From Armatimonadota bacterium (GTDB lineage Bacteria; Armatimonadota; Hebobacteria; GCA-020354555; CP070648): a stretch of DNA of 64,000 nucleotides. The notes under the pieces were generated by a model. The model was not told the DNA's origin. It did not search any database and worked only from the letters and a program-made list of their open reading frames with translations. The position numbers were made by a program, and so were the translations under genes. Shown here piece by piece: positions 2-20,353 of the stretch (the first letter of the stretch is position 1; each line of letters begins with the position of its first letter). The stretch covers positions 2,544,152-2,608,151 of the forward strand of contig CP070648.1 of NCBI GenBank assembly GCA_020354555.1, written 5' to 3'.

Positions 2-856
2 GCCCGGACCCAGGAAGCGATGGCGCAGATATTCGACTTTCAGGGGCAGGGATACACGGACATCAGCCGGATGCTGGCGCAACACGAGTTGGACGCGGCC
101 AGTGTGTGCAGTCCGCATCAACTCCACCGCGAGCACTCCCTGGCCTGTCTCGAGGCCGGGGCGCACGTGTTGTGTGAGAAGCCCCTGGTGTGGGACGTCG
201 CCAAGTCGCCCGAGGATGTGCTGGCGGACGCCAAATCCATGATCTCGGCCGCCGAGCGAGTGGGCCGCATGCTCGCAGCCAACACGCAGTATGTGGCCGC
301 CATCAAGCCGTACCTCGCGCTCTACGAGCAACACCGCGGACCGCTGAACCGATGCGAGCGTCTCGATTTTCGGATGGAGTCGAAGGGCGGCGCGAGCGGC
401 CCCAACCAATACGACGAGATCTGGATAGACCTCGCGAGCCATCCGCTGAGCCTGATGCTCAGGCTGCTGCCGGGCGCGATGTTCGTCGCGGACTCCGCTG
501 ACTGCGTGATCCGGCGCGACGAGGTCGTAGCCGTGTTCGCGATGGAACTGCCGGGCGGTGAGCGCTGCCCGGTGACGATAGAGCTGCGCAACGTCTACGA
601 CGGCCCGATGGTGCGCCGGCTTGGCGCCGACGGCTTCACGGCTGACCTCTCGGGCGCGAATGACGAGCGCGGCATCTATCGAACTCACGTCACCGTCGGT
701 GACGAGCGGGTGGTGTGCGAGGACCTCGTGCACACCTCGGTGCGGCGGTTCGCGGAGGCGGTGCGAGGCGAGGGCGGACCCCTCGCGACGGCGGCGGAGG
801 CGTACGCCAATCTCGAGATCCAACTTGCGTTGTACGGGGCGGCGCGTCGGGAATAG
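2..856 (+). CDS. Gfo/Idh/MocA-family NAD(P)-dependent oxidoreductase, 5'-truncated by the window edge
   Basis: The frame of ORF 20..856 stays open back to base 2. 'HSLACLEAGAHVLCEKPLV' is the family EKP motif, which normally sits about 100 aa into the protein, so the Rossmann N-terminus lies upstream of the window. Confidence 0.8.
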   Translation, partial: ARTQEAMAQIFDFQGQGYTDISRMLAQHELDAASVCSPHQLHREHSLACLEAGAHVLCEKPLVWDVAKSPEDVLADAKSMISAAERVGRMLAANTQYVAAIKPYLALYEQHRGPLNRCERLDFRMESKGGASGPNQYDEIWIDLASHPLSLMLRLLPGAMFVADSADCVIRRDEVVAVFAMELPGGERCPVTIELRNVYDGPMVRRLGADGFTADLSGANDERGIYRTHVTVGDERVVCEDLVHTSVRRFAEAVRGEGGPLATAAEAYANLEIQLALYGAARRE

Positions 857-922
857 GCCACGCCGCAGTCCGCGCGCGGGGCTGCCGCATCGCGGCCGTC
901 GCTGGACGGCCCCCGTATGCGA

Positions 923-951
923 TTGCCGCATTCGGCGGGCCGGGGTATAAT
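923..951 (+). promoter_or_regulatory. sigma70-type promoter (TTGCCG-17-TATAAT) for the TolB-like gene
   Basis: TTGCCG at 923-928, a 17-nt spacer, then TATAAT at 946-951. It lies about 45 nt upstream of the ATG at 997, which is preceded by AGGAGGA. Confidence 0.5.
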
Positions 952-996
952 GACAGGTGGCGCGGAGCAGCTCTCCCGCGCGCAGGAGGAAGTGCT

Positions 997-3677: not shown

Positions 3678-6600
3678 CTAGCGCGCCGCTAGGCGCAGCT
3701 CGCCGTACCCATTGCCCACGTCCTGGGCAGTGATGACGACGCGCAGGAGACCGCGTTCGCTTCGCGTCTCGACGCTTCGAGCCGCCTCGCCTTCCCTCTG
3801 CCACAGCGCGCGCGTGCCCTCCTCGACAGGCAGAGAGATCTCGACGGTGCCCGTCGCCTCGATTCGATAGCGCCCGTGGGCAGTGCGCTCAACGTGGGCG
3901 GTGGGCTTGACCTCCACGGCGTCGCCGACCCCGAAATCGAACAGCCGCACGAAGGTCCTGCCGTCACCATCGGCATCGGTCGGCCTGGCGTCGGAGTTGT
4001 CGAAAGTAATGCGAGCGGCCTCGATGCCAGTAACCCGCCCGAGTCGCCGTCCCTCCTCGTCGAGGGCCGTCATCCCGTCGTAGAAGTCGAGGCCGGCAAG
4101 GTGAAGGTGGTTCGGCGTATTCACCCAGCCCGGACCGCTCTCCGATACCAGGAGGAGTGCTGTCTGCGGATCCAAGTCCTCCAGGCGCAGGATCACCGTG
4201 CCGTCGCCAGCCGCAGTGGCATCCACGATGCCCCACGCCGTTGAGCGCCCGCCGCCGCCGAAGACCACGGTGCTGCCGGCCAATGCCGGCAAAGATGCAC
4301 CGCAGGCGCTTGGCCTCATCGTCACGGTCCGCGCCTCGTAATCAGCAGCGATAACGCGTCCCCGCAGTCCCTCCGAAAGGGTGAATCGCAGGTCGCCGAT
4401 GCCTATATGTCCGGGGCCGCAGAGAAAGGCGCGGTTGATCCGGTTGGCGGAGTGCGAAATGAGGCCAAAGCTGCCGGCGAACGTGAAGCCTCCCTCCGCC
4501 TCCAAGCTGCCGCCGCGCGGACAGCTTCCGATGTAGTCATCTCCGTCGGCGGTCTGGACGCGCGCCGCGAAAGACAGCGGATCGGCGTTCCTGACGGGCA
4601 GGCTGCGCGCGCTGATCGCCGGAGGGCGCTCGCGGTATGGTTCGAATAGGGAGGCGAATACGCTCGTCAGCGGCTCGCGGGCGGACTCACTGCCGACCTC
4701 TTGTCGACGGCACAGGACATACTTGAGCTGGTCGGGATTGCCGGGCCGGAACGGCGGGGTCCCGTCGCACACGAAGACCTGCTGCGACTGCTGCGGAAGC
4801 CATGTGATCCGGAGATGGCCGGCGTCCTCGGGCAGGGTCCACAGCGCGCTCCACGGGTTCTCAGCTTCGCCTCGCTGTACGTTGGTCAGGAAACTGAACC
4901 CGCTTCCCGCATAACCGTAGAACGGGCCGTCGTAATCGAGGGCGCTGCGCTCGGGATCATCGTAGAAGTTGGCGAATGGCACCTCCGGCCCGGCGAGCGT
5001 TCCTGCGGTCTGCGGCGGGGACAGGTCGAGGCCGGTCGCCTCGAACTCGCCGTCCGGCCCGTGGAGCGAATAGTCATGCTGTGTGCCGCCGACGACGCGG
5101 AAGATGTCGAGAGCGTAGGGGCCCGCGGGATTATCAACGAGCGCGACGGTGCGGCGATACATCTCCACCTCTTCGCGATAGGCGTCGGGCGCGTCCACCT
5201 CGACGAGCTGCACAGTAGCGGACGACGCGAAAGCGACGATCTCGCCGCAGTCGCCGGTCGTCTGCCCCTTGGCGTTCACGACCACCGTGTTGTGGCTCAC
5301 CGTGTTGCGCGACCAGCCAGGCGGCTCGGGGTCATCCGCCGCGAACTGCGGGTAGCCGAGATCGGGCATGAGCTTGCGCCCGAGCGCGAACAGCTCGATG
5401 TTGAGGCGATCGGCGTGGCCGTGGCCGACACCGGTGCCGTAGAACAGCGAGATATCGGCGGGGTGCTCCAGGTCGCGGCCGCGCAGCAGCGCGAGGCCGT
5501 AACCCCCGAGATTCTCCGAATCGCGGGGGAAAGCTGGCGGCGGCATCTCGGCCGACGCAGCGGGCTCGTCGAAGATATCCTCATACGTCGCGAAGCCCGG
5601 CGCAGTGACCGGCTTCACGCCCGGGAGCGCGTCGAATACATCCGGCCCGTACTCGCGAATCGCGATGCGGGTCATCCACGCGGGAATCGTGACCGAGCCC
5701 GCGGTGACACTGCTCGAGTCGCCGATGGCAGGAGTGAAGCCGCCGTGGACGATCATGCGCGGCGGGCCGAGGTAGAGCTGGCGCATGCGCGGCTCGCGGT
5801 ACAGGTCAACCCCGGCGCCGCGCAGCACCTCCGCGATGCGCGTCAGCGTATTGGCCCAGATGAAGCAGTACCCCGGCGCGGTCTCATGCACCGACAGCCC
5901 GTCGCGTGAGAGCAAGTTGACCAGCGCGTAGCGAATGCCTTCGTATTGCATGCCCCGGCCCGTCGTGTGCAGGAGGAAGTCCACGACATCCCCGAGATCC
6001 TTCTCGCCTACCATCGCAGCAGTCAGCAGCGTCTCTTGGTGCATCCCGTAGTTGCCGCGGATCGTGGCGTCGTATACACCTTTGACCACTTCATCCACTA
6101 CGTTGCGCTCGATGTTGGCGCGTATGTCGGCGCCGGACTTGCCCAGGAAACGCTGCGCGGCGCCCGCTTCGTCAATTGCATCGTACACGTTGTCGTACGC
6201 CTCGGCCAGCGTTGCCCCGGTGTACGTCTCCCAGATCAGGTTCAGGATCTTGCCGGTGTACGACGGAGAGAACTCCTGCGCGTAACGGGACTGCTTGTTA
6301 TAGTCCATCGCCGGGTAAACTTCCGCGATGCGGTCGAGCAGAATGATCGCCTGCTGCGCGTAGTGCGGATCGCCGGTCAGCAGGTAGGCGCGGGACAGGT
6401 TCAGGGTCATCGGCAGAACATGCCATCGCCACGCCCAGTGATTGTAGTACGCGACGAACCAGTACTTCTTCTCTTCGCCGGGCTTGTGCCAGCCCCAGCC
6501 GTCGTCGGGGTAGTCGCCCGTCAGCAGCGACCGGTCGGTCATGCCGGAATCGAGGAACGCCCGGAAGTCGTTGGATGGGTACTCCTCGCCCCCGACCGGA

Positions 6601-6971
6601 CACTTGACCTTGAACGGGCGGTCGAGGTCTATCGAGAAGGAGTAGTTACCGTGCTTGAACGCGTCGCGCCCATGGATGGGGCAGCCGGAGAAGCTGATGT
6701 TGAAAGCCCGCGGCGCCTCCGGCGGCGTGACGAGGCCGGCGACCCATTCGTCGCTGCGACCGCGCCATGCATCGGCCGCTTTGACAATGGAATCGGCAAT
6801 CGCCTGCGCCCCCGGGTATTCGGCGATGTTGCGGCGGGCGCGGGCGATCTCTGCGCCTGTGTGCAGCGCGCGGCGGGTCTTGACTGAGCGCATAGGTGCC
6901 TCCTCGGGGACGGCGGGCATCGCGAACGCGATCGCGAGGGCAAGGGTGAGCGAGGGGGTGATGCAATTCAC
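3678..6971 (-). CDS. heparinase II/III-like polysaccharide lyase family protein (large, secreted)
   Basis: 'GHGHADRLNIELFALGRKLMPDLGYPQF...WSRNTVSHNTVVVNAKGQ' matches the Hepar_II_III C-terminal domain signature. The start is re-set to GTG 6971, which follows GGAGGA by 5 nt and gives a signal peptide (VNCITPSLTLALAIAFAMPAVP). Confidence 0.8.
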   Translation of the reverse strand: MNCITPSLTLALAIAFAMPAVPEEAPMRSVKTRRALHTGAEIARARRNIAEYPGAQAIADSIVKAADAWRGRSDEWVAGLVTPPEAPRAFNISFSGCPIHGRDAFKHGNYSFSIDLDRPFKVKCPVGGEEYPSNDFRAFLDSGMTDRSLLTGDYPDDGWGWHKPGEEKKYWFVAYYNHWAWRWHVLPMTLNLSRAYLLTGDPHYAQQAIILLDRIAEVYPAMDYNKQSRYAQEFSPSYTGKILNLIWETYTGATLAEAYDNVYDAIDEAGAAQRFLGKSGADIRANIERNVVDEVVKGVYDATIRGNYGMHQETLLTAAMVGEKDLGDVVDFLLHTTGRGMQYEGIRYALVNLLSRDGLSVHETAPGYCFIWANTLTRIAEVLRGAGVDLYREPRMRQLYLGPPRMIVHGGFTPAIGDSSSVTAGSVTIPAWMTRIAIREYGPDVFDALPGVKPVTAPGFATYEDIFDEPAASAEMPPPAFPRDSENLGGYGLALLRGRDLEHPADISLFYGTGVGHGHADRLNIELFALGRKLMPDLGYPQFAADDPEPPGWSRNTVSHNTVVVNAKGQTTGDCGEIVAFASSATVQLVEVDAPDAYREEVEMYRRTVALVDNPAGPYALDIFRVVGGTQHDYSLHGPDGEFEATGLDLSPPQTAGTLAGPEVPFANFYDDPERSALDYDGPFYGYAGSGFSFLTNVQRGEAENPWSALWTLPEDAGHLRITWLPQQSQQVFVCDGTPPFRPGNPDQLKYVLCRRQEVGSESAREPLTSVFASLFEPYRERPPAISARSLPVRNADPLSFAARVQTADGDDYIGSCPRGGSLEAEGGFTFAGSFGLISHSANRINRAFLCGPGHIGIGDLRFTLSEGLRGRVIAADYEARTVTMRPSACGASLPALAGSTVVFGGGGRSTAWGIVDATAAGDGTVILRLEDLDPQTALLLVSESGPGWVNTPNHLHLAGLDFYDGMTALDEEGRRLGRVTGIEAARITFDNSDARPTDADGDGRTFVRLFDFGVGDAVEVKPTAHVERTAHGRYRIEATGTVEISLPVEEGTRALWQREGEAARSVETRSERGLLRVVITAQDVGNGYGELRLAAR

Positions 6972-7149
6972 AGCGATCCTCCGCGAGGTGATTCGGCATG
7001 CGCCGGGGCCCGCCCTGCCGAGGCTGTCTGGAGGATGAATCCACTCCACAGCGAAGTTAGAGCCCAAGCCATGAATGGCGAGAAGCCTTGGCGAGATCCT
7101 GCGCTTCGTTTGGCACAGCATCTCGGCTGACGACACGGGAGGGTCACGC

Positions 7150-8274
7150 ATGACCTCGCGGGAACGCCTGCTGGCGCTGCTTCAGGGCAGGCCGGTTGAT
7201 CGCTGCGGCGTGTGCACCTACACCCACGACGGGCTCAACAACTCCCGCCTGAGAGAGGAGCCGAGTTGTGCGGAGATGATGCCGGTCATCGACGCGGAAA
7301 CAGAGATCTTCCTCGGCTGGGGGCCCAAGGTTGAGCCCAACGTATTCCTGTCCACATCACCCGACATCTCCATCTCCGAGGAGGAGCACCCCGAAGACGA
7401 CCACGTCGTGATTCGCTCCACGCTCCACACGCCGAAGGATGATCTGCATTCCCTGTGCGTGAGGCACGACGGCGTCGCGACGACGTGGAAAGTGGAGCAC
7501 TATCTCAAGACCGACGAAGACGTCGAGCGGTTCCTCTCCATGCCGTACGTTCGCCCGCGCGTTGAAGACAATGATTTCGCTGGGGCCCTGGCGCGCGTTG
7601 GCGAGCGGGGGCTGGTCGAAATCGGGATGGCCGACCCGATCTGCTACGTTGCGGACCTCTTCGAATTCGGCGACTGGACGATAAGAGCGTGGCAGGACCG
7701 CAAGACGATCCGCCGGTTGCTCGACGCGATAGCGCCTCGCGTGTACGATTGGCTCGACGGCGTGCTCGCGCTGGGTATCAGCGGCACGGTGTTCAGGCTG
7801 TGTGGCCCGGAATACGCGAGCGAGCCGTACGTGAGCCCTGCGCTGTTCCGCGAGTTCGTGACCGAGTATGATCTGCCCATCGCGCGCAAGATGCATGACG
7901 CCGGATGCTACCTGCGCCTGCACAGCCATGGGCGGCTCGGCAACGTGCTCGACCACATCATGGAACTGGAGCCGGATATTCTCGAGCCCGTCGAAGGACC
8001 GCCGAGCGGAGACATCACCATCGGCGAAGTGGCGCGGCGCGTGGGGCGCGACTGCGTGCTCATGGGCAACCTCGAGCCGCGCGAGTTGGAGTTCGCCGAT
8101 GCCGAGGTGGTTGACGCGCTCGTGCGTGAGATCATGGCATCGGTGGCCGGTCATTCGCCGTTGATCGTCGCTCCGACCGATATGCCGATCGCCTTCCCGC
8201 TGTCGCCTGTCTACGCGCGCAACATCCGACGCTACGTCGAGGTGGTGTTGGAAGAGGCGGGCGAGTATAATTGA
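7150..8274 (+). CDS. uroporphyrinogen-decarboxylase (URO-D) family protein, function unknown (paralogue 1)
   Basis: ATG 7150 is preceded by GGGAGGG. The C-terminal half 'LRLHSHGRLGNVLDHIMELEPDILEPVEG...VLMGNLEP' is typical of URO-D/MtaA-like TIM barrels. Confidence 0.7.
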   Translation: MTSRERLLALLQGRPVDRCGVCTYTHDGLNNSRLREEPSCAEMMPVIDAETEIFLGWGPKVEPNVFLSTSPDISISEEEHPEDDHVVIRSTLHTPKDDLHSLCVRHDGVATTWKVEHYLKTDEDVERFLSMPYVRPRVEDNDFAGALARVGERGLVEIGMADPICYVADLFEFGDWTIRAWQDRKTIRRLLDAIAPRVYDWLDGVLALGISGTVFRLCGPEYASEPYVSPALFREFVTEYDLPIARKMHDAGCYLRLHSHGRLGNVLDHIMELEPDILEPVEGPPSGDITIGEVARRVGRDCVLMGNLEPRELEFADAEVVDALVREIMASVAGHSPLIVAPTDMPIAFPLSPVYARNIRRYVEVVLEEAGEYN

Positions 8275-8373
8275 GGATAAGCTCGGCGCGAGTCGAGTCA
8301 CGCCGCGTGCTGCTTGCGGAGAGCTGACGGCTCGGGCCCGAGGGGAACCGCGACGCAGCAGACAAGGAACGCA

Positions 8374-9129
8374 ATGAGTGGCGGCTGTGCTGCGAGGAGA
8401 CGGACGCGCGAGTGGCGTGTGGAACGCGTGGTGGCTCCGGGGCGAGGGTACCACGCCGCGCTGACGCTCGTATCCGACGGTACGGAGCAGGCGTTGGTCA
8501 AGGACTACTCGGGCAGCGGGCCCTTGTTCCGCTTGGTCGCGGCGCCGTGGCTTGCGGCGCGGGAGGCGCGAATATACCGGCGATTGGCGGGCACCCGCGG
8601 GGTGCCGCGCTCCTACGGCCGGTGGGGGCGCACCGGGGTGCTGCTCGAATACGTCGACGGGCGCAACTGCCAGGAAGTCGCGCAAGGCGAAGTCGGCTCG
8701 TGTTTCTTCGACCGCCTGCGCGAGGTGGTGAGCGCGATCCACGGGCGCGGCGTGGCGCACTGCGACCTCAAGACGGCAGACAATATCGTGGTGACGCCCA
8801 CGGGCGAACCGATCATCGTGGATTTCGCGCAAGCCATCAGACGTCCAGCGCGATGGAATCTTCTGGCGCAGGCGATCTATCAGCGCTTCGAGCGCGACGA
8901 TTGGCTGGCACTCTCGAAGCTCAAGGCACGGCTGGCGCCGGGACTGTTGACCGAAGTGGAGATTCGCGCGCTGCGGTGGCGCAGCCCGGCTGAGCGGTTC
9001 GTCCGCGCGGTACGTGACCGCCTGCGGGCGCTGTCCCAGTGGGCGTTCGAGGCGGACGCGCGCGTCTCGCGCGCGCAGGAGAGAACTCGCGAGCGCGGCG
9101 CGTCGGCGCGAGTGCTGGCGCGGAAATAG
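8374..9129 (+). CDS. small atypical protein kinase (RIO / Kdo-WaaP-like fold)
   Basis: It has a catalytic loop 'HCDLKTADNIVV', a metal loop 'IIVDFAQAI' and an N-lobe Lys in 'QALVKDY'. The start is uncertain (TTG 8314 in the ORF track, or ATG 8374 after AAGGAA). Confidence 0.65.
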   Translation: MSGGCAARRRTREWRVERVVAPGRGYHAALTLVSDGTEQALVKDYSGSGPLFRLVAAPWLAAREARIYRRLAGTRGVPRSYGRWGRTGVLLEYVDGRNCQEVAQGEVGSCFFDRLREVVSAIHGRGVAHCDLKTADNIVVTPTGEPIIVDFAQAIRRPARWNLLAQAIYQRFERDDWLALSKLKARLAPGLLTEVEIRALRWRSPAERFVRAVRDRLRALSQWAFEADARVSRAQERTRERGASARVLARK

Positions 9130-9154
9130 AGATCGCTGTCTGAGGTCATTCCCT

Positions 9155-9616
9155 ATGCCGAGATGCGTCAGATGCGGCACCGAGAATCCTGACGGCCGCT
9201 CGCTGTGTTCCCAGTGCGGGGACGATCTGGCCGCTCAAGCGCAGATCGAGGACGACGACACGCTGATCATGCGCCTCGTTACCGGGGAAACGGCACGCCC
9301 ACGGGAGCAGGCGGCGCGCGCGTACCTGTGGCTCCTCGACCCGACCGGGGAGCAGGTCGAGCGTGCCGCGGAGATCTCAGACGATGAATCGGTGATCATC
9401 GGACGGCGGGCGGATTGTACGGTGGTCCTGCCCTCTAACACGGTCTCGCGGCGCCACGCGCGCATCTGGCGTGACGGCGACGACTACCTTCTCGCCGATC
9501 TCGGAAGCACCAATGGGACGCTGCTCAACGGCGAGCCCGCCATCGGCGCGGAGCGACTGAACGACCGCGACGAGATCGCAGTGGGCATCTACAAGTTGAT
9601 ATTCCGCAAGACCTGA
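9155..9616 (+). CDS. zinc-ribbon plus FHA domain protein
   Basis: The N-terminal 'CVRCGTENPDGRSLCSQCG' is a CxxC..CxxC ribbon. The FHA signature is 'IIGRRADCTVVLPSNTVSRRHARI...LADLGSTNGTLLNG'. ATG 9155 lies 25 nt after the kinase stop codon. Confidence 0.9.
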   Translation: MPRCVRCGTENPDGRSLCSQCGDDLAAQAQIEDDDTLIMRLVTGETARPREQAARAYLWLLDPTGEQVERAAEISDDESVIIGRRADCTVVLPSNTVSRRHARIWRDGDDYLLADLGSTNGTLLNGEPAIGAERLNDRDEIAVGIYKLIFRKT

Positions 9617-9741
9617 TGCGACAAGGTCGTTGCGTTACCGGAGAGTCCCAGGCCGGGCCGATCATGCCCGAGGGCTGCATTGCGGAAGAGCTTCGGGCCC
9701 TGCGATGACAGCCGAAACTCCATAATTGCGTCACACGACCT

Positions 9742-12654
9742 ATGCTCTATCCTGCGGCGGCTTTCGCTATCGCTTTCGTCGTGACCCTCGGCGGCACAGC
9801 GCTGCTGCGCCGCCGGCTCGGGGCATTCGTCTCGCGCGAGGCCAAGCCGGGCAAGGAGAGGATTCACCGGCTGTTCCCCAAGCCGCGCAAGCCCCTCGGG
9901 GGCGGCGTCGGCATGATGGCGGCCTTCGCCGCCGGTACCCTGGTCGCGGCGTGGCTGCGCGGCGATCCGCCCCGGATGATTGAAGCCGCCCTCGTCATCG
10001 TCGCAGGTGCTTGGCTGTTCGCCGCCATCGGCATCGGCGATGACCTGCGCAAGGCGCGCGGGGCGGGCATGTCGGAGCGGAGCAAGTTGCTGCTGCAGAT
10101 TGCGGCGGGGCTCGCGCTCGGCCTCTACCTCAAGCTGCGCGTGATGGGCGCGGGCGACGTGTACGTCCCGCTCGTCCGCTACACGCTTCACACCGGATGG
10201 CTCTATGTCCCGTTCGCGGCGCTGGTGATTATCGCGACGGCCAACGGCGTCAACCTGGCGGACGGCGTGGACGGGCTCGCGGCGGGCAGTGTCGCGATCG
10301 CGGGGTTCGCTTACTTCGTCATCGGGTCGTTCTGGAACCCGCAGGTGATGGTCGCGGCCCCGGCGTTGACGGGGGCGTGCCTCGGCTTCCTGGTGCTGAA
10401 TTACCCGCCGGCGCGCGTGCTCATGGGCGACACGGGTGCGTTGGGCCTCGGCGCCGCGCTGGCCATGATGGCGCTGCTCTCGATGGGCGAGTGGGCGCTG
10501 GTGCTCATCGGCGGCGTGTTCGTAATTGACGCGATGTCTGTCATCCTCCAAACCGGAGCGATACGCCTGGTGCGCGGGCCGGTGCAACTCCTGCGCCACC
10601 GCACGACGGAGGCCTGGCGGCCGTTCCTGTGCACGCCGCTGCACCATCATTTTCAGTGGTTGGGCTGGCGCGAGCCGCGCATCCTTGCGTTGTTCTGGAG
10701 CGTCGGCTTGCTGCTCGTCCTGCTCGGGTTTGCCGACTACGCGCTGCGCGTGGATTGGCCATGGCTCGTCGGGCTGGGGGTGATGGCCGCCTTCCTGGCC
10801 GGGGCGGCGTGGCAGAAGGTGGCGCGCGCCAACTTCTTCCTCGGGCTCATGCCGTCGCAGGAAGGGGAGGACCTGCTCGCGCTGTTCCGCGGCATACCCG
10901 TGCGCCTGCTCGGCCGTAGGCTGTATCAGCCCTGCAAGGTGACGCCGATACCCGAGAGCGCGGTCGAGTCGGTGGCGGAGGAGAATCTGTGGCGGCCGAT
11001 GGGGGAGGTCGAGGCGGAGATCATCCTCGGCAAAGTCTACTGCGATCATAAGCTTTACGACCAGGCGATTGGGGAGTGGGAGCAGGTGCCGGTGCGCAAC
11101 TTGATGCTGCGCGAGGACGTCGTGCTGCGCCTGGCGCGGATCTACTACGCGCGCAATCGGATTCTCGACGCCGTGCGGCTGTGGGAGAGGCTGCCGTCGG
11201 CGCGACAGGACAACGGCGAAGGTCTGGGCTCGGTCGTGGCACGCGCCAAGGCCCGCCTCGCCGACCTCGCAGGCAAGTCCTATCGCCAGGCGATGCGCTC
11301 CGGTGTCCGCGCCGAACTGGCACAGGCGCGCCGACTCAACCAGGACCTGCTCGAACTCCTGGTTTACGAGCGGGAGAAGCTGGAGGCTCCTGGGGCAGGC
11401 GCCCAGGTGCCGCAGGCGACGCACGAGCGCGGCCTCTTCCGACGGATGGAGCGGGCGGTGCTGCGGCGCATCGGCGACCTCGACCAGCGACTGGAAACCC
11501 CGGCGCCCGCCGTGCGCGCCGTGCCGGCGGCCGCACTCGACGAGCAGACCGAGGCTGTCGCGCGTCGTCTCGGGATCAGCACACAGGAACTCGTCGAGGC
11601 CTTCGCCGCCTGTCCCTACGGAGTCCCTCGCCTGCGATGGTGCGAGGCGGTGGCCGGAGCGTCGCGCAACGAAATCTACCGCATGGAGGCGGAGTGGGCC
11701 GGCCCGGAGACCATGATCGCGAAGCGCTATGACCCGGCGCGCATTCAGTTCTTTTCGGCGTGCTACCGGCGGGAGGCCGAGGTCGTGCGCTTACTCCATC
11801 AGTACGCGGTCAGCGTGCCGGAGTTCTACGGAGGAGTGGATAACGAGAAGCGTGCGGTGGGGTTCTTCGAGGATCTCGGTGCGGTGACCCTCGCCGGGCG
11901 CCTACGCGAGAACAAGCGCGAGGCGCGAGCACGACTGCTGGAGGAGGCGGTCAGAGCGGTCGCGCGGATGCACGCCGTGGCGCGGCGCAACCTGCCGCGG
12001 CTTCGCGAGGAGATCCTGCGCATCGACAAGGAAGCATTGAGCGAGCGGTATTACATGGACGCGTTCCGCATCGCGCTCGAACGGCTCGTGGAGACCGCTG
12101 GCGCGGAGCTGTCCGCCGATGAGCGGCGGATTGTGGAGGGCCAACTGAGCGAAGTGGCGGCGACCCTCGCGACTCAGCCCAAGACATTCATCCACTTCGA
12201 GCTCACGCCGCATCATCTGGCGGTTCGCGGCGATGACTTCGTGGCGTTCGACTTCGAGCAGGCGACGCTCGGCCCGCCCGAGTTCGACCTCGTGACGCTG
12301 CTGCGCTCCCCGGACAGCGACTTGCAGGATTCGGAAATCGAGCGCCTGCTCGAACGCTATCGGCTGTGCATGACGGAGTCGGATCCCGATCCCCTGCCTC
12401 CTCGCGCGCCCGCAGCCGCAGACTACGCGGCATTGTTCAAGGGACTGTTCTACGCCGGGGCCGCGGCGAATTTCTGGCGCAAATTCGACGACGAGGCGTG
12501 GCTGACTCGCTTGCGCTGGTACCTCAAGGACTGGCAGGCCGTGGCGGCGCGCTACCCCGGGCTGGCGGAAGTGGGGCACATGCTGCGCTCCCGCTTCGGG
12601 CGCATGCCGCGCGCTTCGGGGCAGGGCAACGGCACAGGTGGCGGAGCGACCTAG
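9742..12654 (+). CDS. mraY: phospho-MurNAc-pentapeptide translocase (MraY) fused to TPR repeats and a C-terminal APH-type kinase-like domain
   Basis: MraY motifs are present: 'IGDDLRK', 'NGVNLADGVDGLAAG', 'VLMGDTGALGLG' and 'PLHHHFQWLGW'. The C-terminus shows 'GASRNEIYRM..MIAKRY', 'FFEDLG', 'FIHFELTPHHL' and 'AFDFEQATLG..FDLVTLL'. The whole is a single 970-codon frame. Confidence 0.8.
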   Translation: MLYPAAAFAIAFVVTLGGTALLRRRLGAFVSREAKPGKERIHRLFPKPRKPLGGGVGMMAAFAAGTLVAAWLRGDPPRMIEAALVIVAGAWLFAAIGIGDDLRKARGAGMSERSKLLLQIAAGLALGLYLKLRVMGAGDVYVPLVRYTLHTGWLYVPFAALVIIATANGVNLADGVDGLAAGSVAIAGFAYFVIGSFWNPQVMVAAPALTGACLGFLVLNYPPARVLMGDTGALGLGAALAMMALLSMGEWALVLIGGVFVIDAMSVILQTGAIRLVRGPVQLLRHRTTEAWRPFLCTPLHHHFQWLGWREPRILALFWSVGLLLVLLGFADYALRVDWPWLVGLGVMAAFLAGAAWQKVARANFFLGLMPSQEGEDLLALFRGIPVRLLGRRLYQPCKVTPIPESAVESVAEENLWRPMGEVEAEIILGKVYCDHKLYDQAIGEWEQVPVRNLMLREDVVLRLARIYYARNRILDAVRLWERLPSARQDNGEGLGSVVARAKARLADLAGKSYRQAMRSGVRAELAQARRLNQDLLELLVYEREKLEAPGAGAQVPQATHERGLFRRMERAVLRRIGDLDQRLETPAPAVRAVPAAALDEQTEAVARRLGISTQELVEAFAACPYGVPRLRWCEAVAGASRNEIYRMEAEWAGPETMIAKRYDPARIQFFSACYRREAEVVRLLHQYAVSVPEFYGGVDNEKRAVGFFEDLGAVTLAGRLRENKREARARLLEEAVRAVARMHAVARRNLPRLREEILRIDKEALSERYYMDAFRIALERLVETAGAELSADERRIVEGQLSEVAATLATQPKTFIHFELTPHHLAVRGDDFVAFDFEQATLGPPEFDLVTLLRSPDSDLQDSEIERLLERYRLCMTESDPDPLPPRAPAAADYAALFKGLFYAGAAANFWRKFDDEAWLTRLRWYLKDWQAVAARYPGLAEVGHMLRSRFGRMPRASGQGNGTGGGAT

Positions 12655-12766
12655 CCGGCGCTGCCTCGGGCCCCAATGGCGCGCCTGCGAACCGGGACCC
12701 CCTCGGGAAGCGTTCGAGGCGTTCCCGTCTCGGCGCGGGTTCAGCATATGGAGGAGCACCCCACAG

Positions 12767-13552
12767 ATGAGCGACGACGAGGTGGGCCGCTGCTGGGACG
12801 AGAACGCGGAGGTGTGGGCGCGGCACGTCCGCGCCGGCTACGATCACTACCGCGATCTCTACAACAACCCGGCGTTCTTCGAGTTCGTCGGTGACCTGGC
12901 GGGCCGGATGGTTCTTGACGCCGGCTGCGGCGAGGGCTACAACACCCGGCTCCTGGCGCGCCAGGGCGCGACGATGACCGGCGCGGATATCTCGACGAAG
13001 ATGATCGAGTTGGCCCGCGCGGAGGAGCAGCGCGAGCCGCTGGGGATACGGTATGAGGCCGCTTCGATCAGCGACCTGTCGCTGTTCGCCGACGCGACCT
13101 TCGACGCTGTGGTCTCCACAATGGCGCTGATGGACTGCGCCGATTACGAGGGCACGATTCGCGAGTTCCAGCGCGTTCTGCGACCGGGCGGCTTGCTCGC
13201 CTTCAACGTGTGTCACCCGTGCTTCACCTACGCGATTCGCGACTGGGACTACGATGAGAAGGGCGACGTCGTTGGCATTCGGCTCGGGGCGTACTTCCAG
13301 CGGGGCTCCCACGTCGAGCGCTGGCGGTTCGGCGCCGCACCCGACTCCGAGGATGCAGATCCGTTCACGGTGATCTACTTCCACCGGACGTTGGCAGAGT
13401 TCTTCAACCCCTTTTGCGCGGCTGGGTTCAGCATTGAAGCTGTCGCCGAGCCGCAGCCAACGGAAGAAGCGTGTCAGGCTGATCCACGGCTGCGCAAGCA
13501 CCGCCTCGTCCCGCAAACGCTCTGTGTCAAGGCGCGCAAGGCCGAGCGGTGA
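12767..13552 (+). CDS. class I SAM-dependent methyltransferase
   Basis: Motif I is 'VLDAGCGEGYNT', and 'RVLRPGGLL' is also present. ATG 12767 lies 10 nt after GGAGGAG. Confidence 0.85.
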   Translation: MSDDEVGRCWDENAEVWARHVRAGYDHYRDLYNNPAFFEFVGDLAGRMVLDAGCGEGYNTRLLARQGATMTGADISTKMIELARAEEQREPLGIRYEAASISDLSLFADATFDAVVSTMALMDCADYEGTIREFQRVLRPGGLLAFNVCHPCFTYAIRDWDYDEKGDVVGIRLGAYFQRGSHVERWRFGAAPDSEDADPFTVIYFHRTLAEFFNPFCAAGFSIEAVAEPQPTEEACQADPRLRKHRLVPQTLCVKARKAER

Positions 13553-18523: not shown

Positions 18524-20353
18524 GTGGAGGCCACGTTGGTGTTGGCGCTCGGTAATGTGCCGCCGCTGGTTATCGGACTCGCCGCCGCAGCTCTGGGCTA
18601 TGCGCTGCCGGCGATATGGCTGCGCGTGACGGCGAGGCGTTGGCGCAAAGCCCCTCATTCGCGCACGGTGCGCATCGTATCCGGCGCAGGGGTGTTCGCC
18701 GCCTTCGTCGTTCCCCTGGTCGTGCTGGCTTCGGGTGAGGCGATACGCCCGGTCGCCCTCGCGTGCGCTGCCGTGTTCGTCGTCGGCGTCGCCGACGACG
18801 TCCACACGCTGCCGCGCTGGCTCAAGCTCCTGTTGTTTGCAGCGGTCGCCTATTGGGCGCACTCGCTCGGGATCCGCATCGACACGGTCAAGCCGCCGTT
18901 CACCACGGCATACGCGAACCTGGGACTGTGGTCGGCCCCGGTGACCGTGATCTGGCTGCTCGGCGTGATGTGGGCCATCGCGCTCAGCCGCCGAGTACCG
19001 GGCCTCACCCCGGGGCTGGTGGCCCTCATATCACTGACGTTCGCCGCGGCTGCGGGAATCGCGCCGGGCAGCCCGAGGGCGGTCACGGTAGCGATTACGT
19101 TCCCCCTGGCCGGCGCGGCGCTCGGTTATCTGCGCTATGAGCTGCCGCCGGCGCGGATGATGCTCGGCAGCAGCGGACACTATGCGCTCGGCTTCGCGCT
19201 CGCCGCCGTGAGCGTCATCGGCGCGCTCAAGAACACCGCCTTTCTCGTTGTCGGGCTGCCGTTGCTGGTGCTGGCGGTGCCGCTGCTCAATACGACCTAT
19301 GCGGCGGTGTACGCGTCTCGCCGCGGCCGCGCAGCTTTCACCATCGCGCCGCGCGCGGAATACCTGCACCAGATCATGCTCCGCGAGGGCGTGCGCTTGC
19401 GCCACGTCGTGCTCTTGTTCTACATGATGACGGCATACCTGTGCCTCGTGGGTCTGATCCTTGTCGTCGTCATCGAGGTGTCGTTCCTGGTCAAGTTCGC
19501 GCTGCTGGCGGTTCTGGTCGCCATCGGGCTGGTTGGATTCTATGTCACGGCGCGAGTTCTCTCGCATCCCGACGCAGTCGGGCACAGCGCCGTCGAGCTC
19601 CTGGGCGTGGCGGTGCATCGCACCGACGTCGCCGGCGCGCTGCATCGCATAACGCAGTTCGTCGAGGAAGGCGCGCCGCATCATGTCGTGACTCCGGATT
19701 CCTCGGCACTGGTGCGCGCTCAGGAGGACCCGGAGTTGATGGATATTCTGCGCTCGGCCGACCTCGTCACCGCCGATGGCGCCGGCGTCGTGTGGATGGC
19801 CAAGGTGCTGGGCTTGCCGCTGTGGGAGCGCGTCTCGGGCGTGGATCTGATGGATCACATCTGCGAACTCGCCGCGGAGAAGCGCTACTCCGTTTACCTG
19901 CTCGGGGCCGCGCCCGGCGTCGCCAAAGCCGCCGCGCAGAAGCTTCAGGAGTGTTACCCGGGCCTGACCGTGGCGGGCACGACGCACGGCTATTTCAACG
20001 AGACTCAGGAGTCGCAGGTGGTGCACCGCATCGCCGAGGCGAAGCCGGACATCCTCTTCGTGGCGCTCGGCGTGCCGAAACAGGAGAAATGGATCCGGCG
20101 CCATCTCGACGATCTCAAAGCGCCGGTGGCGATCGGCGTCGGCGGCAGCTTCGACGTCATCTCGGGGCGCGTGAGGCGAGCGCCCGCGTTTATGCGGCGG
20201 TGGGGCTTGGAGTGGCTGTGGCGAACGCTGTGGCAGCCGTCGCGCCTGCCGAGGCTCGCGGCGTTGCCGAGGTTCGTATGGATGGCCGCCGCCGACCGGA
20301 TACGCCGCCGCGGGCAGGCCGGACGCCCTGGGCAGTCGGCGCCCCCCGGTTGA
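18524..20353 (+). CDS. fusion protein: degenerate WecA/TagO-like polytopic membrane domain plus WecG/TagA/CpsF-family (GT26) glycosyltransferase
   Basis: The C-terminal ~240 aa ('VTPDSSALVRAQ...LVTADGAGVVW...LLGAAPGV...FVALGVPKQEKW...GVGGSFDV') are TagA/WecG-like. The N-terminal ~350 aa are multi-TM with 'GVADDV' but read 'VPGLTPGL' and 'MLGSSGH' where the GT4 family has DGxDGL and GDxGS. Confidence 0.8.
   Translation: MEATLVLALGNVPPLVIGLAAAALGYALPAIWLRVTARRWRKAPHSRTVRIVSGAGVFAAFVVPLVVLASGEAIRPVALACAAVFVVGVADDVHTLPRWLKLLLFAAVAYWAHSLGIRIDTVKPPFTTAYANLGLWSAPVTVIWLLGVMWAIALSRRVPGLTPGLVALISLTFAAAAGIAPGSPRAVTVAITFPLAGAALGYLRYELPPARMMLGSSGHYALGFALAAVSVIGALKNTAFLVVGLPLLVLAVPLLNTTYAAVYASRRGRAAFTIAPRAEYLHQIMLREGVRLRHVVLLFYMMTAYLCLVGLILVVVIEVSFLVKFALLAVLVAIGLVGFYVTARVLSHPDAVGHSAVELLGVAVHRTDVAGALHRITQFVEEGAPHHVVTPDSSALVRAQEDPELMDILRSADLVTADGAGVVWMAKVLGLPLWERVSGVDLMDHICELAAEKRYSVYLLGAAPGVAKAAAQKLQECYPGLTVAGTTHGYFNETQESQVVHRIAEAKPDILFVALGVPKQEKWIRRHLDDLKAPVAIGVGGSFDVISGRVRRAPAFMRRWGLEWLWRTLWQPSRLPRLAALPRFVWMAAADRIRRRGQAGRPGQSAPPG

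What the first reader, a model, noticed from the sequence alone, without database searches (positions are those of the whole stretch)
9742..12654. MraY (lipid I synthase) fused to TPR repeats and an APH/AmgK-type kinase-like domain with a substituted catalytic loop
This is one uninterrupted 970-codon frame. Residues ~1-385 carry every MraY hallmark (IGDDLRK; ANGVNLADGVDGLAAG; NYPPARVLMGDTGALGLG; PLHHHFQWLGW). Residues ~400-520 read as TPR-like helical repeats (GKVYCDHKLYDQAIGEWEQV, LARIYYARNRILDAVRLWERL). Residues ~620-940 show the landmarks of the aminoglycoside/choline/MurNAc-kinase fold. These are an N-lobe 'GASRNEIYRM..MIAKRY', a hinge 'GFFEDLG', 'VARMHAV' and a metal loop 'AFDFEQATLG..FDLVTLL'. 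The catalytic loop reads 'FIHFELTPHHL' where the fold normally has H-x-D-x-x-x-x-N, so Asp is replaced by Glu and Asn by His. MraY is normally a stand-alone protein of about 320-360 aa in the dcw cluster. A cytoplasmic pseudokinase fused to a lipid-linked peptidoglycan-precursor protein is established for mycobacterial MviN/MurJ, which is controlled by PknB and the FHA protein FhaA. I do not know of the same arrangement for MraY. An alternative reading is an AmgK-like anomeric MurNAc/GlcNAc kinase domain that couples sugar recycling to lipid I synthesis.
Basis: partly seen in the sequence, partly recalled or inferred. Interest (0 to 1): 0.8.

Follow-up and report, generated by a model that had tools for sequence, protein, structure and literature searches.

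The report
MraY-like enzyme fused to kinase-fold domain
This is a real gene, conserved across uncultured Armatimonadota, that joins a divergent copy of the cell-wall enzyme MraY through an extra membrane helix to a cytoplasmic kinase-fold domain, usually sits directly after a phosphothreonine-reader (FHA) gene, and probably represents an undescribed way of controlling the first membrane step of cell-wall synthesis.

Summary
Window 9742-12654(+) is one 970-codon ORF. It scores on Pfam Glycos_transf_4 (1.3e-30) and APH (1.1e-18). At least 120 full-length homologues (38-77% identity) exist in independent Armatimonadota assemblies, so it is not an assembly artefact.

- An 11th transmembrane helix brings the C-terminal module back into the cytoplasm.
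- A Zn-ribbon-FHA gene lies immediately upstream in every lineage that has Thr716 in the kinase-fold domain. It is absent where residue 716 is Asp, Asn or Gly.
- The Asp-to-Glu change in the catalytic loop is invariant across the family, while the ATP/Mg residues (K661, E678, D837) are also invariant. That pattern is unlike the degraded MviN pseudokinase.
- The MraY-like domain keeps all catalytic residues. It has lost the uracil-stacking Phe, has a rebuilt loop A and carries a 12-13 residue insertion in loop E.
- Published KEGG counts give two K01000 (mraY) genes in the Hebobacteria MAGs that carry one fusion. The fusion is therefore probably an extra paralogue, not the housekeeping MraY.

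Best reading (moderate confidence): an accessory lipid-I-type synthase controlled through a nucleotide-binding kinase-fold module and an FHA adaptor. I found no curated family and no paper describing it. Novelty: new variant of a known kind. Interest 0.66.

The parts
9742..12654 (+). Whole fusion CDS (970 aa + stop)
   Evidence: At least 120 full-length homologues.
9742..10746 (+). MraY-type polyprenyl-phosphate phospho-sugar transferase domain, residues 1-335, 10 TM helices. The catalytic set D100 D101 K104 K115 N168 N171 D174 D177 N220 D230 Q270 H301-303 is invariant in 70/70.
10576..10617 (+). Family-specific insertion in cytoplasmic loop E (GPVQLLRHRTTEAW). R285 and E290 are invariant; T289 is T/S in 65/70. 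Predicted disordered (pLDDT <50 at 282-292).
10756..10830 (+). Extra 11th transmembrane helix (residues 339-363; W341 and L352 invariant). It returns the chain to the cytoplasm.
10834..10953 (+). Juxtamembrane three-stranded beta element (residues 365-404; G384 invariant, T401 T/S 70/70).
10954..11511 (+). Helical linker (residues 405-590): TPR-like hairpins at 422-483, then three long helices at 495-585. Contains many invariant residues (L416 W417 R418 E422 E424 W446 R452 R457 R505).
   Evidence: (TPR_19, weak).
11542..12597 (+). APH/AmgK-type kinase-fold domain (residues 601-952).
11887..11889 (+). Thr716, just after the hinge EDLG. It is Thr in all FHA-linked loci and Asp/Asn/Gly in FHA-less loci. 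Candidate phospho-docking site (inference).
12193..12216 (+). Catalytic loop H818-F-E820-L-T-P-H-H825. Glu replaces the catalytic Asp in 69/69 aligned sequences. Position 825 is His in 48 and Asn in 21.
9155..9616 (+). Zn-ribbon + FHA adaptor gene (153 aa; GAGG about 9 nt upstream). It is the conserved upstream partner of the fusion.
8314..9129 (+). Small RIO/Kdo-like kinase ORF with intact HCDLKTADN and DFA motifs. Present only in this genome, so it is not a conserved part of the system (start codon uncertain).
12638..13552 (+). SAM-dependent methyltransferase immediately downstream. Conserved only in the closest relatives (77% identity), not family-wide. Start codon uncertain.

Best explanation
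The gene encodes an accessory, divergent MraY paralogue. It occurs in particular uncultured classes of Armatimonadota, including Hebobacteria.

Shown:
- The N-terminal 10-TM domain is an MraY-type phospho-sugar transferase with every catalytic residue intact.
- An 11th TM helix carries the chain back into the cytoplasm.
- A conserved beta/helical linker then holds an APH/AmgK-type kinase-fold domain.
- That domain keeps the ATP- and Mg-binding residues but always has Glu in place of the catalytic Asp.
- In most lineages the gene directly follows, and is probably co-translated with, a small Zn-ribbon-FHA protein whose phosphothreonine-binding residues are intact.

Inferred mechanism:
- The kinase-fold domain acts as a nucleotide-binding regulatory or docking module. 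It is not an AmgK-type sugar kinase.
- Phosphorylation of a Thr recruits the FHA adaptor. The best candidate is Thr716 next to the hinge, phosphorylated either by the domain itself or by a Hanks kinase.
- The FHA-bound or unbound state of the cytoplasmic module is relayed to the MraY-like active site. The relay would run through the family-specific loop A and the loop E insertion, which sit on the same cytoplasmic face.
- This switches an extra lipid-I-type synthase on or off.

Functionally this resembles the mycobacterial MviN(MurJ)-pseudokinase/FhaA checkpoint, but it acts at the MraY step and is built from a different kinase lineage.
For: Identity and architecture.

Conservation across at least 120 clusters and 28 GTDB loci.

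TM11 and topology:
- AF2 helix at 339-363.
- 11 hydrophobic segments and none after residue 370.
- K+R-rich loops at 26-53, 279-310 and 364-400.
- Canonical MraY sequences end after TM10.

FHA linkage:
- The FHA gene is immediately upstream on the same strand in 13 of the GTDB loci, in L109-L111 and in the window.
- The other flanking genes differ between lineages (URO-D, Dxs, acyltransferase).
- There is a 4-nt overlap in L111.
- The FHA pThr-binding residues GR / SRxH / STNGT are invariant.

Thr716/FHA co-variation, including the deep-branching L103.

Nucleotide-site residues K661 70/70, E678 69/70, D837 69/70 and E820 69/69.

Paralogue status:
- K01000 = 2 in 8/13 Hebobacteria MAGs. These include the three MAGs in which exactly one fusion locus was found (L082, L085, L088).
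- K01000 is never 2 in the Zipacnadia columns shown.
- wecA is counted separately (PMC10290634 Suppl. Table 8).
- The fusion's MraY domains form 11 clusters. These are separated by a score gap from all canonical MraY sequences (204 bits or more against 157 or less).
- No dcw genes flank the fusion anywhere.

MviN/FhaA precedent: PMC12599244.
Against: - No binding, phosphorylation or enzymatic activity can be tested here.
- The Thr716/FHA correlation rests on only two or three independent lineages. It could be phylogenetic inertia.
- Clade B (about 30% of the family) has no adjacent FHA gene, so FHA cannot be essential to the protein's core function.
- Strict conservation of Lys/Glu/Asp plus an invariant Glu looks more like an active enzyme than like a scaffold.
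- APH-type kinases normally phosphorylate small molecules, not proteins.
- The second K01000 gene was not retrieved. 'Canonical' is inferred from counts, and only for one class.
- Loss of the uracil-stacking Phe and of the Thr75 equivalent may mean the donor is not UDP-MurNAc-pentapeptide.
- The full-length AF2 model has pTM 0.65, so the inter-domain geometry is uncertain.
Confidence: 0.4

Rival explanations
1. Bifunctional enzyme. The kinase-fold domain is a catalytically active small-molecule or lipid kinase that uses Glu820 as its base. It would supply or modify a substrate of the attached MraY-like domain at the membrane surface. Examples: undecaprenol to undecaprenyl phosphate, or phosphorylation of the lipid-linked product. 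FHA would be a secondary regulator.
For: - The ATP/Mg residues and Glu820 are invariant across sequences only 38-77% identical. That is typical of a functional active site.
- The closest solved and curated relatives are small-molecule kinases: 3csv, corramycin phosphotransferase, APH, MTR kinase, choline kinase and AmgK.
- TM11 plus the juxtamembrane beta element tether the domain at the membrane.
- Clade B works without an adjacent FHA gene.
- Dxs, an isoprenoid precursor enzyme, lies upstream of FHA in one sub-clade.
Against: - The catalytic Asp is essentially universal in active APH/ELK kinases (established knowledge), and Glu replaces it here.
- Asn825 is replaced by His in two thirds of the family.
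- No substrate can be inferred.
- The roughly 240-residue conserved linker and the FHA coupling are not explained by simple substrate channelling.
- The AmgK model scores far below its cut-off.
Confidence: 0.27
2. The MraY-like domain no longer makes lipid I. Having lost the uracil-stacking Phe and the Thr75 equivalent, and with loops A and E rebuilt, it would transfer a different phospho-sugar to a polyprenyl phosphate. That would start another envelope polymer, and the kinase-fold domain would serve that pathway.
For: - Leu/Ile in 70/70 at the Aa-F262 position, against Phe 29 and Trp 1 of 30 canonical sequences.
- Leu/Met at the Aa-T75 position, against Thr/Ser/Asn in canonical sequences (residue roles from PMC6606608).
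- TIGR00445 scores below its cut-off.
- A separate K01000 gene probably covers housekeeping lipid I synthesis.
- The fusion is never found in a dcw cluster.
Against: - The MraY equivalog model still scores 180 bits, against 25 bits for WecA.
- The MraY-specific HHH loop-E motif, NxxNxxDGxDGL, and the K, N and Q residues are invariant.
- Solved MraY structures match far better than GPT (E 1e-36 against 6e-4).
- No polymer-specific glycosyltransferases are conserved nearby.
Confidence: 0.18
3. It is the sole, housekeeping MraY of these bacteria, simply extended by a regulatory tail.
For: - Single copy per genome in most loci.
- The catalytic residues are invariant.
- Armatimonadota often have scattered rather than clustered genes (my own knowledge). 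Flanking genes vary between the fetched loci.
Against: - K01000 = 2 in the fusion-bearing Hebobacteria MAGs, while murD, murF and uppS are 1 or less.
- The family was found in only about 27 GTDB species genomes and in no cultured Armatimonadota.
- Fimbriimonas has murE-murF-mraY-murD-murG as neighbours (PMC6327494).
- The fusion's MraY domains sit on a long branch away from all canonical MraY sequences.
Confidence: 0.12
4. Assembly or frameshift artefact joining two genes.
For: None. Two long-read MAGs (L089, L107) show the opposite error: the gene is split by a frameshift.
Against: - The same architecture occurs in at least 120 protein clusters from independent assemblies and sequencing platforms.
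- The linker between the two domains is conserved and has many invariant residues.
- The AF2 model is confident through the junction.
Confidence: 0.01

Closest known systems
MraY (phospho-MurNAc-pentapeptide translocase; TIGR00445, K01000; structures 4J72, 5CKR, 8G01, 9ZNO)
   Same: - 10-TM PNPT fold, TM-score 0.75-0.86.
- DD, NxxNxxDGxDGL, MGD and PLHHHF motifs invariant.
- 30-44% identity to canonical MraY sequences.
   Different: - 635 extra residues: TM11, linker and kinase fold.
- Loop A GTPTMGG is replaced by R/K-K/R-P-L-G-G-G.
- 12-13 residue loop E insertion (LLRHxTTE).
- Leu/Ile in place of the uracil-stacking Phe.
- Not in a dcw cluster.
- Just below the equivalog cut-off.
- Probably a second copy per genome.
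Mycobacterial MviN (MurJ)-pseudokinase / FhaA / PknB checkpoint
   Same: - A membrane enzyme of the lipid-linked peptidoglycan precursor pathway carries a cytoplasmic kinase-fold domain.
- It is functionally tied to an FHA-domain protein.
   Different: - The MviN domain is a Hanks-type pseudokinase that has lost the VAIK Lys, HRD and DFG motifs and does not bind ATP or Mg (PMC12599244).
- Here the domain is APH/AmgK-type and keeps Lys, Glu and Asp.
- The partner enzyme is MraY-like, not MurJ.
- The FHA gene is adjacent and co-oriented here, which is not reported for mviN (PMC12599244 lists its operon partners without fhaA).
- The FHA protein is a minimal Zn-ribbon-FHA, not FhaA.
AmgK (anomeric MurNAc/GlcNAc kinase) and its structural homologue 3CSV
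   Same: - Best sequence and fold match of the C-terminal domain: 3csv at E 4e-15 and TM 0.63/0.72.
- Shared EDLG hinge and DF(E/Q)(Q/D)A..G...(F/Y)DL..LL metal-loop region.
   Different: - 40 bits against the 550-bit AmgK cut-off.
- Glu instead of the catalytic Asp.
- No MurU partner nearby.
- Membrane-tethered as part of a 970-aa protein.
GarA/OdhI-type FHA switches and T7SSb EssB(YukC) pseudokinase-FHA contacts
   Same: - A small FHA protein that carries its own conserved Thr motif (D-D-T-L-I-[IL]) in the linker preceding the FHA domain.
- A membrane kinase-fold protein paired with an FHA domain.
   Different: No homology beyond the FHA domain. The targets are unrelated: TCA-cycle enzymes for GarA/OdhI (my own knowledge) and type VII secretion for EssB/YukC. 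The similarity is an analogy only.

Membership tests
MraY (TIGR00445 / K01000) | PNPT 10-TM fold matching solved MraY | tested here: met
   Pfam PF00953 1.3e-30. PDB MraY chains at E 1e-29 to 1e-36. Foldseek TMt 0.75-0.86.
MraY (TIGR00445 / K01000) | Catalytic residues: DDxxK, NxxNxxDGxDGL, Mg-binding D of MGD, loop E HHH | tested here: met
   All are invariant in 70/70 family members.
MraY (TIGR00445 / K01000) | Score at or above the curated equivalog cut-off | tested here: not met
   180.4 bits against a cut-off of 192.05. JGI pipelines nevertheless name homologues as MraY.
MraY (TIGR00445 / K01000) | Uracil pocket Phe (Aa F262) and uridine-adjacent Thr (Aa T75) in GTPTMGG | tested here: not met
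   Leu/Ile in 70/70 and Leu/Met in 69/70. Canonical sequences have F29/W1 and T24/S2/N2 of 30. Residue roles are from PMC6606608.
MraY (TIGR00445 / K01000) | Position between murF and murD in a dcw cluster (usual, not obligatory) | tested here: not met
   No Mur ligase or FtsW homologue flanks the gene in the window or in the GTDB loci L081-L108, which were compared with 80 canonical dcw loci. None is among the called genes of L109-L111.
MraY (TIGR00445 / K01000) | Lipid I synthase activity with UDP-MurNAc-pentapeptide | not testable with these tools
   Needs an enzyme assay or complementation.
APH / eukaryotic-like kinase fold (PF01636) | Pfam gathering score and bilobal kinase fold | tested here: met
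   68.3 bits against 23.2. AF2 pLDDT 90.5. Foldseek probability 1.00 to APH, MTR kinase and choline kinase.
APH / eukaryotic-like kinase fold (PF01636) | Nucleotide/metal residues: beta3 Lys, alphaC Glu, DFG-equivalent Asp | tested here: met
   K661 70/70, E678 69/70, D837 69/70.
APH / eukaryotic-like kinase fold (PF01636) | Brenner motif HxDxxxxN with a catalytic Asp | tested here: not met
   H818-x-E820-xxxx-[H48/N21]. Glu in 69/69 aligned sequences.
AmgK (NF045759) | Equivalog score | tested here: not met
   40.4 bits against a cut-off of 550, covering only residues 683-862.
AmgK (NF045759) | Genomic or functional pairing with MurU (NTP transferase) | tested here: not met
   No NTP_transferase among the called genes within 10 kb in L109-L111. 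The nearest one in the window is 24 kb away.
MviN-type pseudokinase / FhaA checkpoint | Hanks-type pseudokinase that has lost the ATP-binding motifs | tested here: not met
   The domain is APH-type with Lys, Glu and Asp retained. MviN features are from PMC12599244.
MviN-type pseudokinase / FhaA checkpoint | Functional partnership with an FHA protein | tested here: inconclusive
   Strong genetic linkage: the FHA gene is adjacent in all clade A loci, and the FHA pThr pocket is intact. Physical binding and phosphorylation are not testable here.
TPR repeat proteins | Pfam TPR model at or above the gathering score | tested here: not met
   TPR_19 gives 15.7 bits against 25, E 0.019. AF2 shows helical hairpins at 422-483 that are compatible with about 2 TPR-like repeats.

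The most novel reading that the evidence does not exclude
The protein and its FHA partner would form a self-contained phospho-switch on the first membrane step of cell-wall synthesis. In this reading the APH-type domain has been re-tooled, with a Glu base, into a threonine (auto)kinase or ATP sensor. It writes or exposes a pThr at Thr716. The Zn-ribbon-FHA protein reads that mark and gates the MraY-like active site through the loop A and loop E insertions. This would be the first known direct post-translational control module built into an MraY, and a case of a small-molecule kinase fold recruited into FHA signalling.
Probability: 0.15. Interest if true: 0.85.

Novelty: new variant of a known kind. 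Interest (0 to 1): 0.66.

Why it matters
MraY catalyses the first committed membrane step of peptidoglycan synthesis and is an antibiotic target. How cells regulate it is only beginning to be understood. The only established case of a lipid-precursor enzyme with a built-in kinase-fold module and an FHA partner is mycobacterial MviN/FhaA, which acts at the flippase step.

A conserved MraY paralogue that is hard-wired to a nucleotide-binding kinase fold and genetically coupled to an FHA reader suggests that regulation by phospho-signalling, or by ATP or metabolite sensing, has evolved independently at the MraY step.

The family also offers natural variants of the MraY nucleotide pocket (Phe to Leu/Ile, Thr to Leu). 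These are relevant to understanding substrate and nucleoside-inhibitor recognition. It also provides an invariant Asp-to-Glu kinase active site that is worth biochemical study.

The limits are that the organisms are uncultured and the function is inferred.

Tried and rejected
1. The search for related loci with the full-length alignment. Only canonical mraY loci from other phyla came back (L001-L080). I reused them as a dcw reference set.

2. Finding a canonical mraY in the fusion-bearing genomes directly. This is not possible, because the tools give only ±10 kb around a match. Ranking canonical hits by similarity and two name look-ups gave no taxonomic information. The question was settled only indirectly, through published KO counts.

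3. The look-up of encoding contigs for the window protein itself: not on record.

4. Aligning the kinase N-lobe alone against PDB sequences gave nothing significant. The 'ASRNxxYR ~ DASxRxYFR' resemblance to AmgK therefore remains a recollection, not a result.

5. The RIO-like kinase at 8314-9129 as the cognate writer kinase. I rejected it as a conserved component. It is absent from the 77%-identical relatives and from all other loci.

6. Conserved partners in clade B. None were found; the flanking genes are unrelated to each other.

7. AmgK/MurU KO rows in the Hebobacteria table. They are absent from the stored, truncated file, so this is uninformative.

8. Promoter and terminator scan of 7-14 kb: nothing above chance.

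9. Literature searches for MraY fusions or paralogues, or MraY with FHA or a pseudokinase: no relevant paper.

Full report
**1. Observation**

Window 9742-12654 (+) is a single ORF of 970 codons.
- Pfam finds Glycos_transf_4 at residues 84-247 (E 1.3e-30) and APH at 646-874 (E 1.1e-18). It gives only a sub-threshold TPR_19 hit at 458-491.
- NCBIfam places the N-terminus closest to the mraY equivalog: 180.4 bits against a cut-off of 192.05, compared with 25 bits for WecA. The C-terminus is closest to AmgK, but at 40 bits against a cut-off of 550.
- Solved MraY sequences match at E 1e-29 to 1e-36, whereas human GPT matches only at 6e-4.
- AlphaFold2 with a 70-sequence family alignment gives a confident full-length model (pLDDT 89.3, pTM 0.65). 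Its N-terminal third superposes on MraY crystal and cryo-EM structures with target-normalised TM 0.75-0.86.
- A separate model of residues 596-970 has pLDDT 90.5 and pTM 0.88. It is a bilobal APH-type kinase fold. The best match is 3csv (TM 0.63/0.72), followed by corramycin phosphotransferase, APH(3')-Ia, MTR kinase and choline kinase. A sequence profile also hits 3csv best, at 4e-15.

**2. Not an artefact**

A search of the large protein collection returned at least 120 clusters of 925-1034 aa with the same two Pfam domains, at 38-77% identity. They come from NCBI, JGI, ENA and Logan assemblies. The few that carry an organism name are labelled 'phosphotransferase [Armatimonadota bacterium]'.

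A scan of GTDB species genomes with two C-terminal family motifs found 28 loci. All are in Armatimonadota or Hebobacteria MAGs, or in MAGs labelled only 'uncultured bacterium'. Two are labelled Bacillota but carry near-identical motifs. Three are complete chromosomes. No cultured Armatimonadota genome appeared.

In the 50%-identity representative library the MraY domains of the family form 11 clusters (E 4e-55 or better). There is then a clear gap before the best canonical MraY, at 6e-41 and 42% identity.

**3.

(a) *Extra transmembrane helix.* Canonical MraY sequences end after TM10 (alignment). By established topology, both termini of MraY are periplasmic (my own knowledge). In this family a further hydrophobic helix at 339-363 follows, with W341 and L352 invariant. 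Hydropathy shows 11 hydrophobic segments, none after residue 370, and K+R-rich loops at 26-53, 279-310 and 364-400. The C-terminal 600 residues are therefore cytoplasmic, where ATP and an FHA protein are available.

(b) *Linker.* After TM11 comes a three-stranded beta element (365-404). Short helical hairpins follow at 422-483, and these are the 'TPR-like' part. Then come three long helices at 495-585. Many residues in this region are invariant.

(c) *Kinase-fold domain.* It keeps the beta3 Lys (K661, 70/70), the alphaC Glu (E678, 69/70) and the metal-loop Asp (D837, 69/70). The catalytic loop is F-I-H818-F-E820-x-T-P-x-[H/N]. Glu replaces Asp in every aligned sequence. The Asn position is His in 48 sequences and Asn in 21 of 70.

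(d) *MraY-like domain.* All catalytic residues are retained in 70/70: D100, D101, K104, K115, N168, N171, D174, D177, N220, D230, Q270 and H301-303. Three things differ from canonical MraY sequences:
- Loop A reads SRExKxGKExIHRLFPKPRKPLGGG instead of ...KxGTPTMGG.
- Loop E has a 12-13 residue insertion, GPVxLLRHxTTE. It is predicted disordered, and T289 is T/S in 65/70.
- The positions equivalent to A. aeolicus F262 (uracil stacking) and T75 (uridine-adjacent pocket) are Leu/Ile (70/70) and Leu/Met (69/70). In 30 canonical sequences they are Phe/Trp and Thr/Ser/Asn.

These points rest. The residue roles come from PMC6606608.

**4. Surroundings**

Directly upstream lies a 153-aa protein with an N-terminal zinc ribbon and an FHA domain (9155-9616). 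An orthologue (E 1e-43 to 1e-48) sits immediately upstream on the same strand in 13 of the 28 GTDB loci, which is every HFE-x-TP-HH locus with enough upstream DNA, plus the deep-branching L103 (HNEFIPRN). The same arrangement holds in three metagenome contigs of closer relatives. In L111 the two genes overlap by 4 nt.

The other neighbours change from lineage to lineage:
- URO-D upstream and a methyltransferase downstream in the window and its 77%-identical relatives.
- Dxs upstream and a DUF3084 protein downstream in a second group.
- An acyltransferase upstream in a third.

The FHA-fusion pair is therefore the conserved unit. The FHA orthologues keep the phosphothreonine-binding residues (GR, SRxH, STNGT) and the CPxC...CxxCG ribbon. 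They also share a conserved acidic linker motif, D-D-T-L-I-[IL]-R-L.

A second clade has the loop HFE-x-TP-GN. It has no FHA gene within 10 kb and no other conserved neighbour.

Comparing the two sets, only one Ser/Thr position is conserved in the His825 group of the family alignment and not in the Asn825 group. That is Thr716, immediately after the hinge EDLG. In the fetched loci it is Thr in all FHA-linked cases, including L103. In all 11 FHA-less loci it is Asp, Asn or Gly, most often Asp. I treat this as a lead and not as proof, because only two or three independent lineages are involved.

No dcw or mur gene flanks the fusion in the window or in any of the GTDB loci. None is among the called genes of L109-L111. 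I saw no Hanks kinase or PP2C phosphatase in the parts of the window I scanned. A small RIO/Kdo-like kinase ORF with an intact HCDLKTADN motif lies at 8314-9129, upstream of the FHA gene. It is unique to this genome.

**5. Is it the cell's MraY?**

I could not scan whole genomes, so the evidence is indirect.
- Fimbriimonas ginsengisoli, a cultured member of the phylum, has murE-murF-mraY-murD-murG as neighbours (PMC6327494).
- Supplementary Table 8 of Carlton et al. 2023 (PMC10290634) lists KEGG counts per MAG. K01000 (mraY) is 2 in 8 of 13 Hebobacteria MAGs.
- Those eight include the three MAGs in which my scan found exactly one, intact fusion locus: M3-38_Bin_440 = L088, M3-44_Bin_391 = L085, Meg19_1012_Bin_93 = L082.
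- K01000 is never 2 in the Zipacnadia columns shown, and no fusion was found in that class.
- murD, murF and uppS are 1 or less in the same MAGs. wecA/tagO (K02851) is counted separately.

The simplest reading is one canonical MraY plus the fusion. The fusion is therefore probably an accessory paralogue, at least in that class. The long branch of its MraY domain and its altered nucleotide pocket fit this reading.

**6. Mechanism**

*Shown:* the architecture, the topology, the intact transferase catalytic set, the intact nucleotide/metal residues together with an invariant Glu for Asp, and the FHA gene linkage.

*Inferred (confidence about 0.4):* the cytoplasmic module is a nucleotide-binding regulatory or docking device. 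With the FHA adaptor it switches an extra lipid-I-type synthase. The signal would be transmitted through the family-specific cytoplasmic loops A and E.

This works like the mycobacterial MviN-pseudokinase/FhaA checkpoint (PMC12599244), but it is not a member of that system. The MviN domain is a Hanks-type pseudokinase that has lost the VAIK, HRD and DFG motifs and does not bind ATP. This domain is APH/AmgK-type and retains those residues.

*Rivals:*
- An active small-molecule or lipid kinase that feeds or modifies the transferase's substrate (0.27).
- A transferase with a changed donor specificity that serves another polymer (0.18).
- The sole housekeeping MraY (0.12).
- An artefact (0.01).

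The AmgK recycling idea is disfavoured for three reasons. The domain scores far below the AmgK cut-off. No MurU is nearby. MurNAc-1-P cannot reach MraY without MurU and MurC-F.

**7. Novelty**

NCBIfam has no model for this architecture. Source annotations say only 'phosphotransferase' or 'MraY'. Full-text searches for MraY together with Armatimonadota, APH fusion, FHA/pseudokinase or paralogue, and a 2025 review of bacterial pseudokinases, gave nothing.

I rate it a new variant of a known kind: a peptidoglycan membrane enzyme with a fused kinase-fold regulator. Interest is 0.66. A cell-wall specialist would find the architecture surprising, and it points to testable regulation at the MraY step. 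Against that, the organisms are uncultured and the function is inferred.

Noticed in passing
window 18524-20353 (+): A second polyprenyl-phosphate transferase in the window. This 609-aa protein fuses a Glycos_transf_4 (WecA/TagO-like) domain to a WecG/TagA/CpsF glycosyltransferase domain (E 8e-68). It looks like a fused first-and-second-step enzyme for a linkage-unit type polymer.
   Followed up: no
window 8314-9129 (+): A small RIO/Kdo-like kinase ORF with intact HCDLKTADN and DFA motifs, inserted between URO-D and the FHA gene. It is absent from the 77%-identical relatives (L109, L110) and from all other loci.
   Followed up: partly
window 9155-9616 and its orthologues in L082-L111: The Zn-ribbon-FHA proteins share a conserved acidic linker motif, D-D-T-L-I-[IL]-R-L, between the ribbon and the FHA domain. 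The Thr has a hydrophobic residue at +3. This is reminiscent of the self-binding phospho-switch of GarA/OdhI.
   Followed up: partly
L089 (OY970296.1) 8152-11113; L107 (OY969415.1) 8162-11257: In two complete MAG chromosomes (isolate names MFD04408.bin.1.1 and MFD00905.bin.2.19) the fusion gene is split into two overlapping ORFs by a frameshift. The protein P0104 shows the same out-of-frame C-terminus. These are probably sequencing errors rather than pseudogenes.
   Followed up: partly
L095 and L096 (both from MAG DASXVL01, SMAG_U4744): Two fusion genes of the FHA-less clade occur in one MAG and are 69% identical. They are either true paralogues or the result of a mixed bin.
   Followed up: partly
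L082, L083, L085, L086, L088-L091 (about 2-4 kb upstream of the fusion): In one sub-clade the conserved block is: TPR protein, Dxs (DXP synthase, isoprenoid precursor pathway), FHA, fusion, DUF3084 protein, with a SPFH/NfeD pair on the opposite strand. Dxs next to an enzyme that uses undecaprenyl phosphate may or may not be meaningful.
   Followed up: partly
PMC10290634 Suppl. Table 8 (Hebobacteria columns): FtsW/SpoVE (K03588) is also present in two copies in most Hebobacteria MAGs, but in 0-1 copies in Zipacnadia. This parallels the doubled K01000 and hints at a duplicated set of membrane-step peptidoglycan enzymes in that class.
   Followed up: no
L084 (JAUVSA01) and L087 (DAOVEW01): Two MAGs deposited as 'Bacillota bacterium' carry fusion genes whose motifs are near-identical to the Armatimonadota ones (QDLGDETLAERLEA, FIHFEFTPHH). 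The bins are probably mislabelled.
   Followed up: no
window 3678-7151 (-) and 715-3633 (+): Two very large genes are present: a 1157-aa protein with a heparinase II/III C-terminal domain, and a 972-aa protein with PD40/DPPIV-N/Big_7 (Tricorn-like) domains. A 922-aa Tricorn/PD40-like protein also lies upstream in the 77%-identical relative L109.
   Followed up: no
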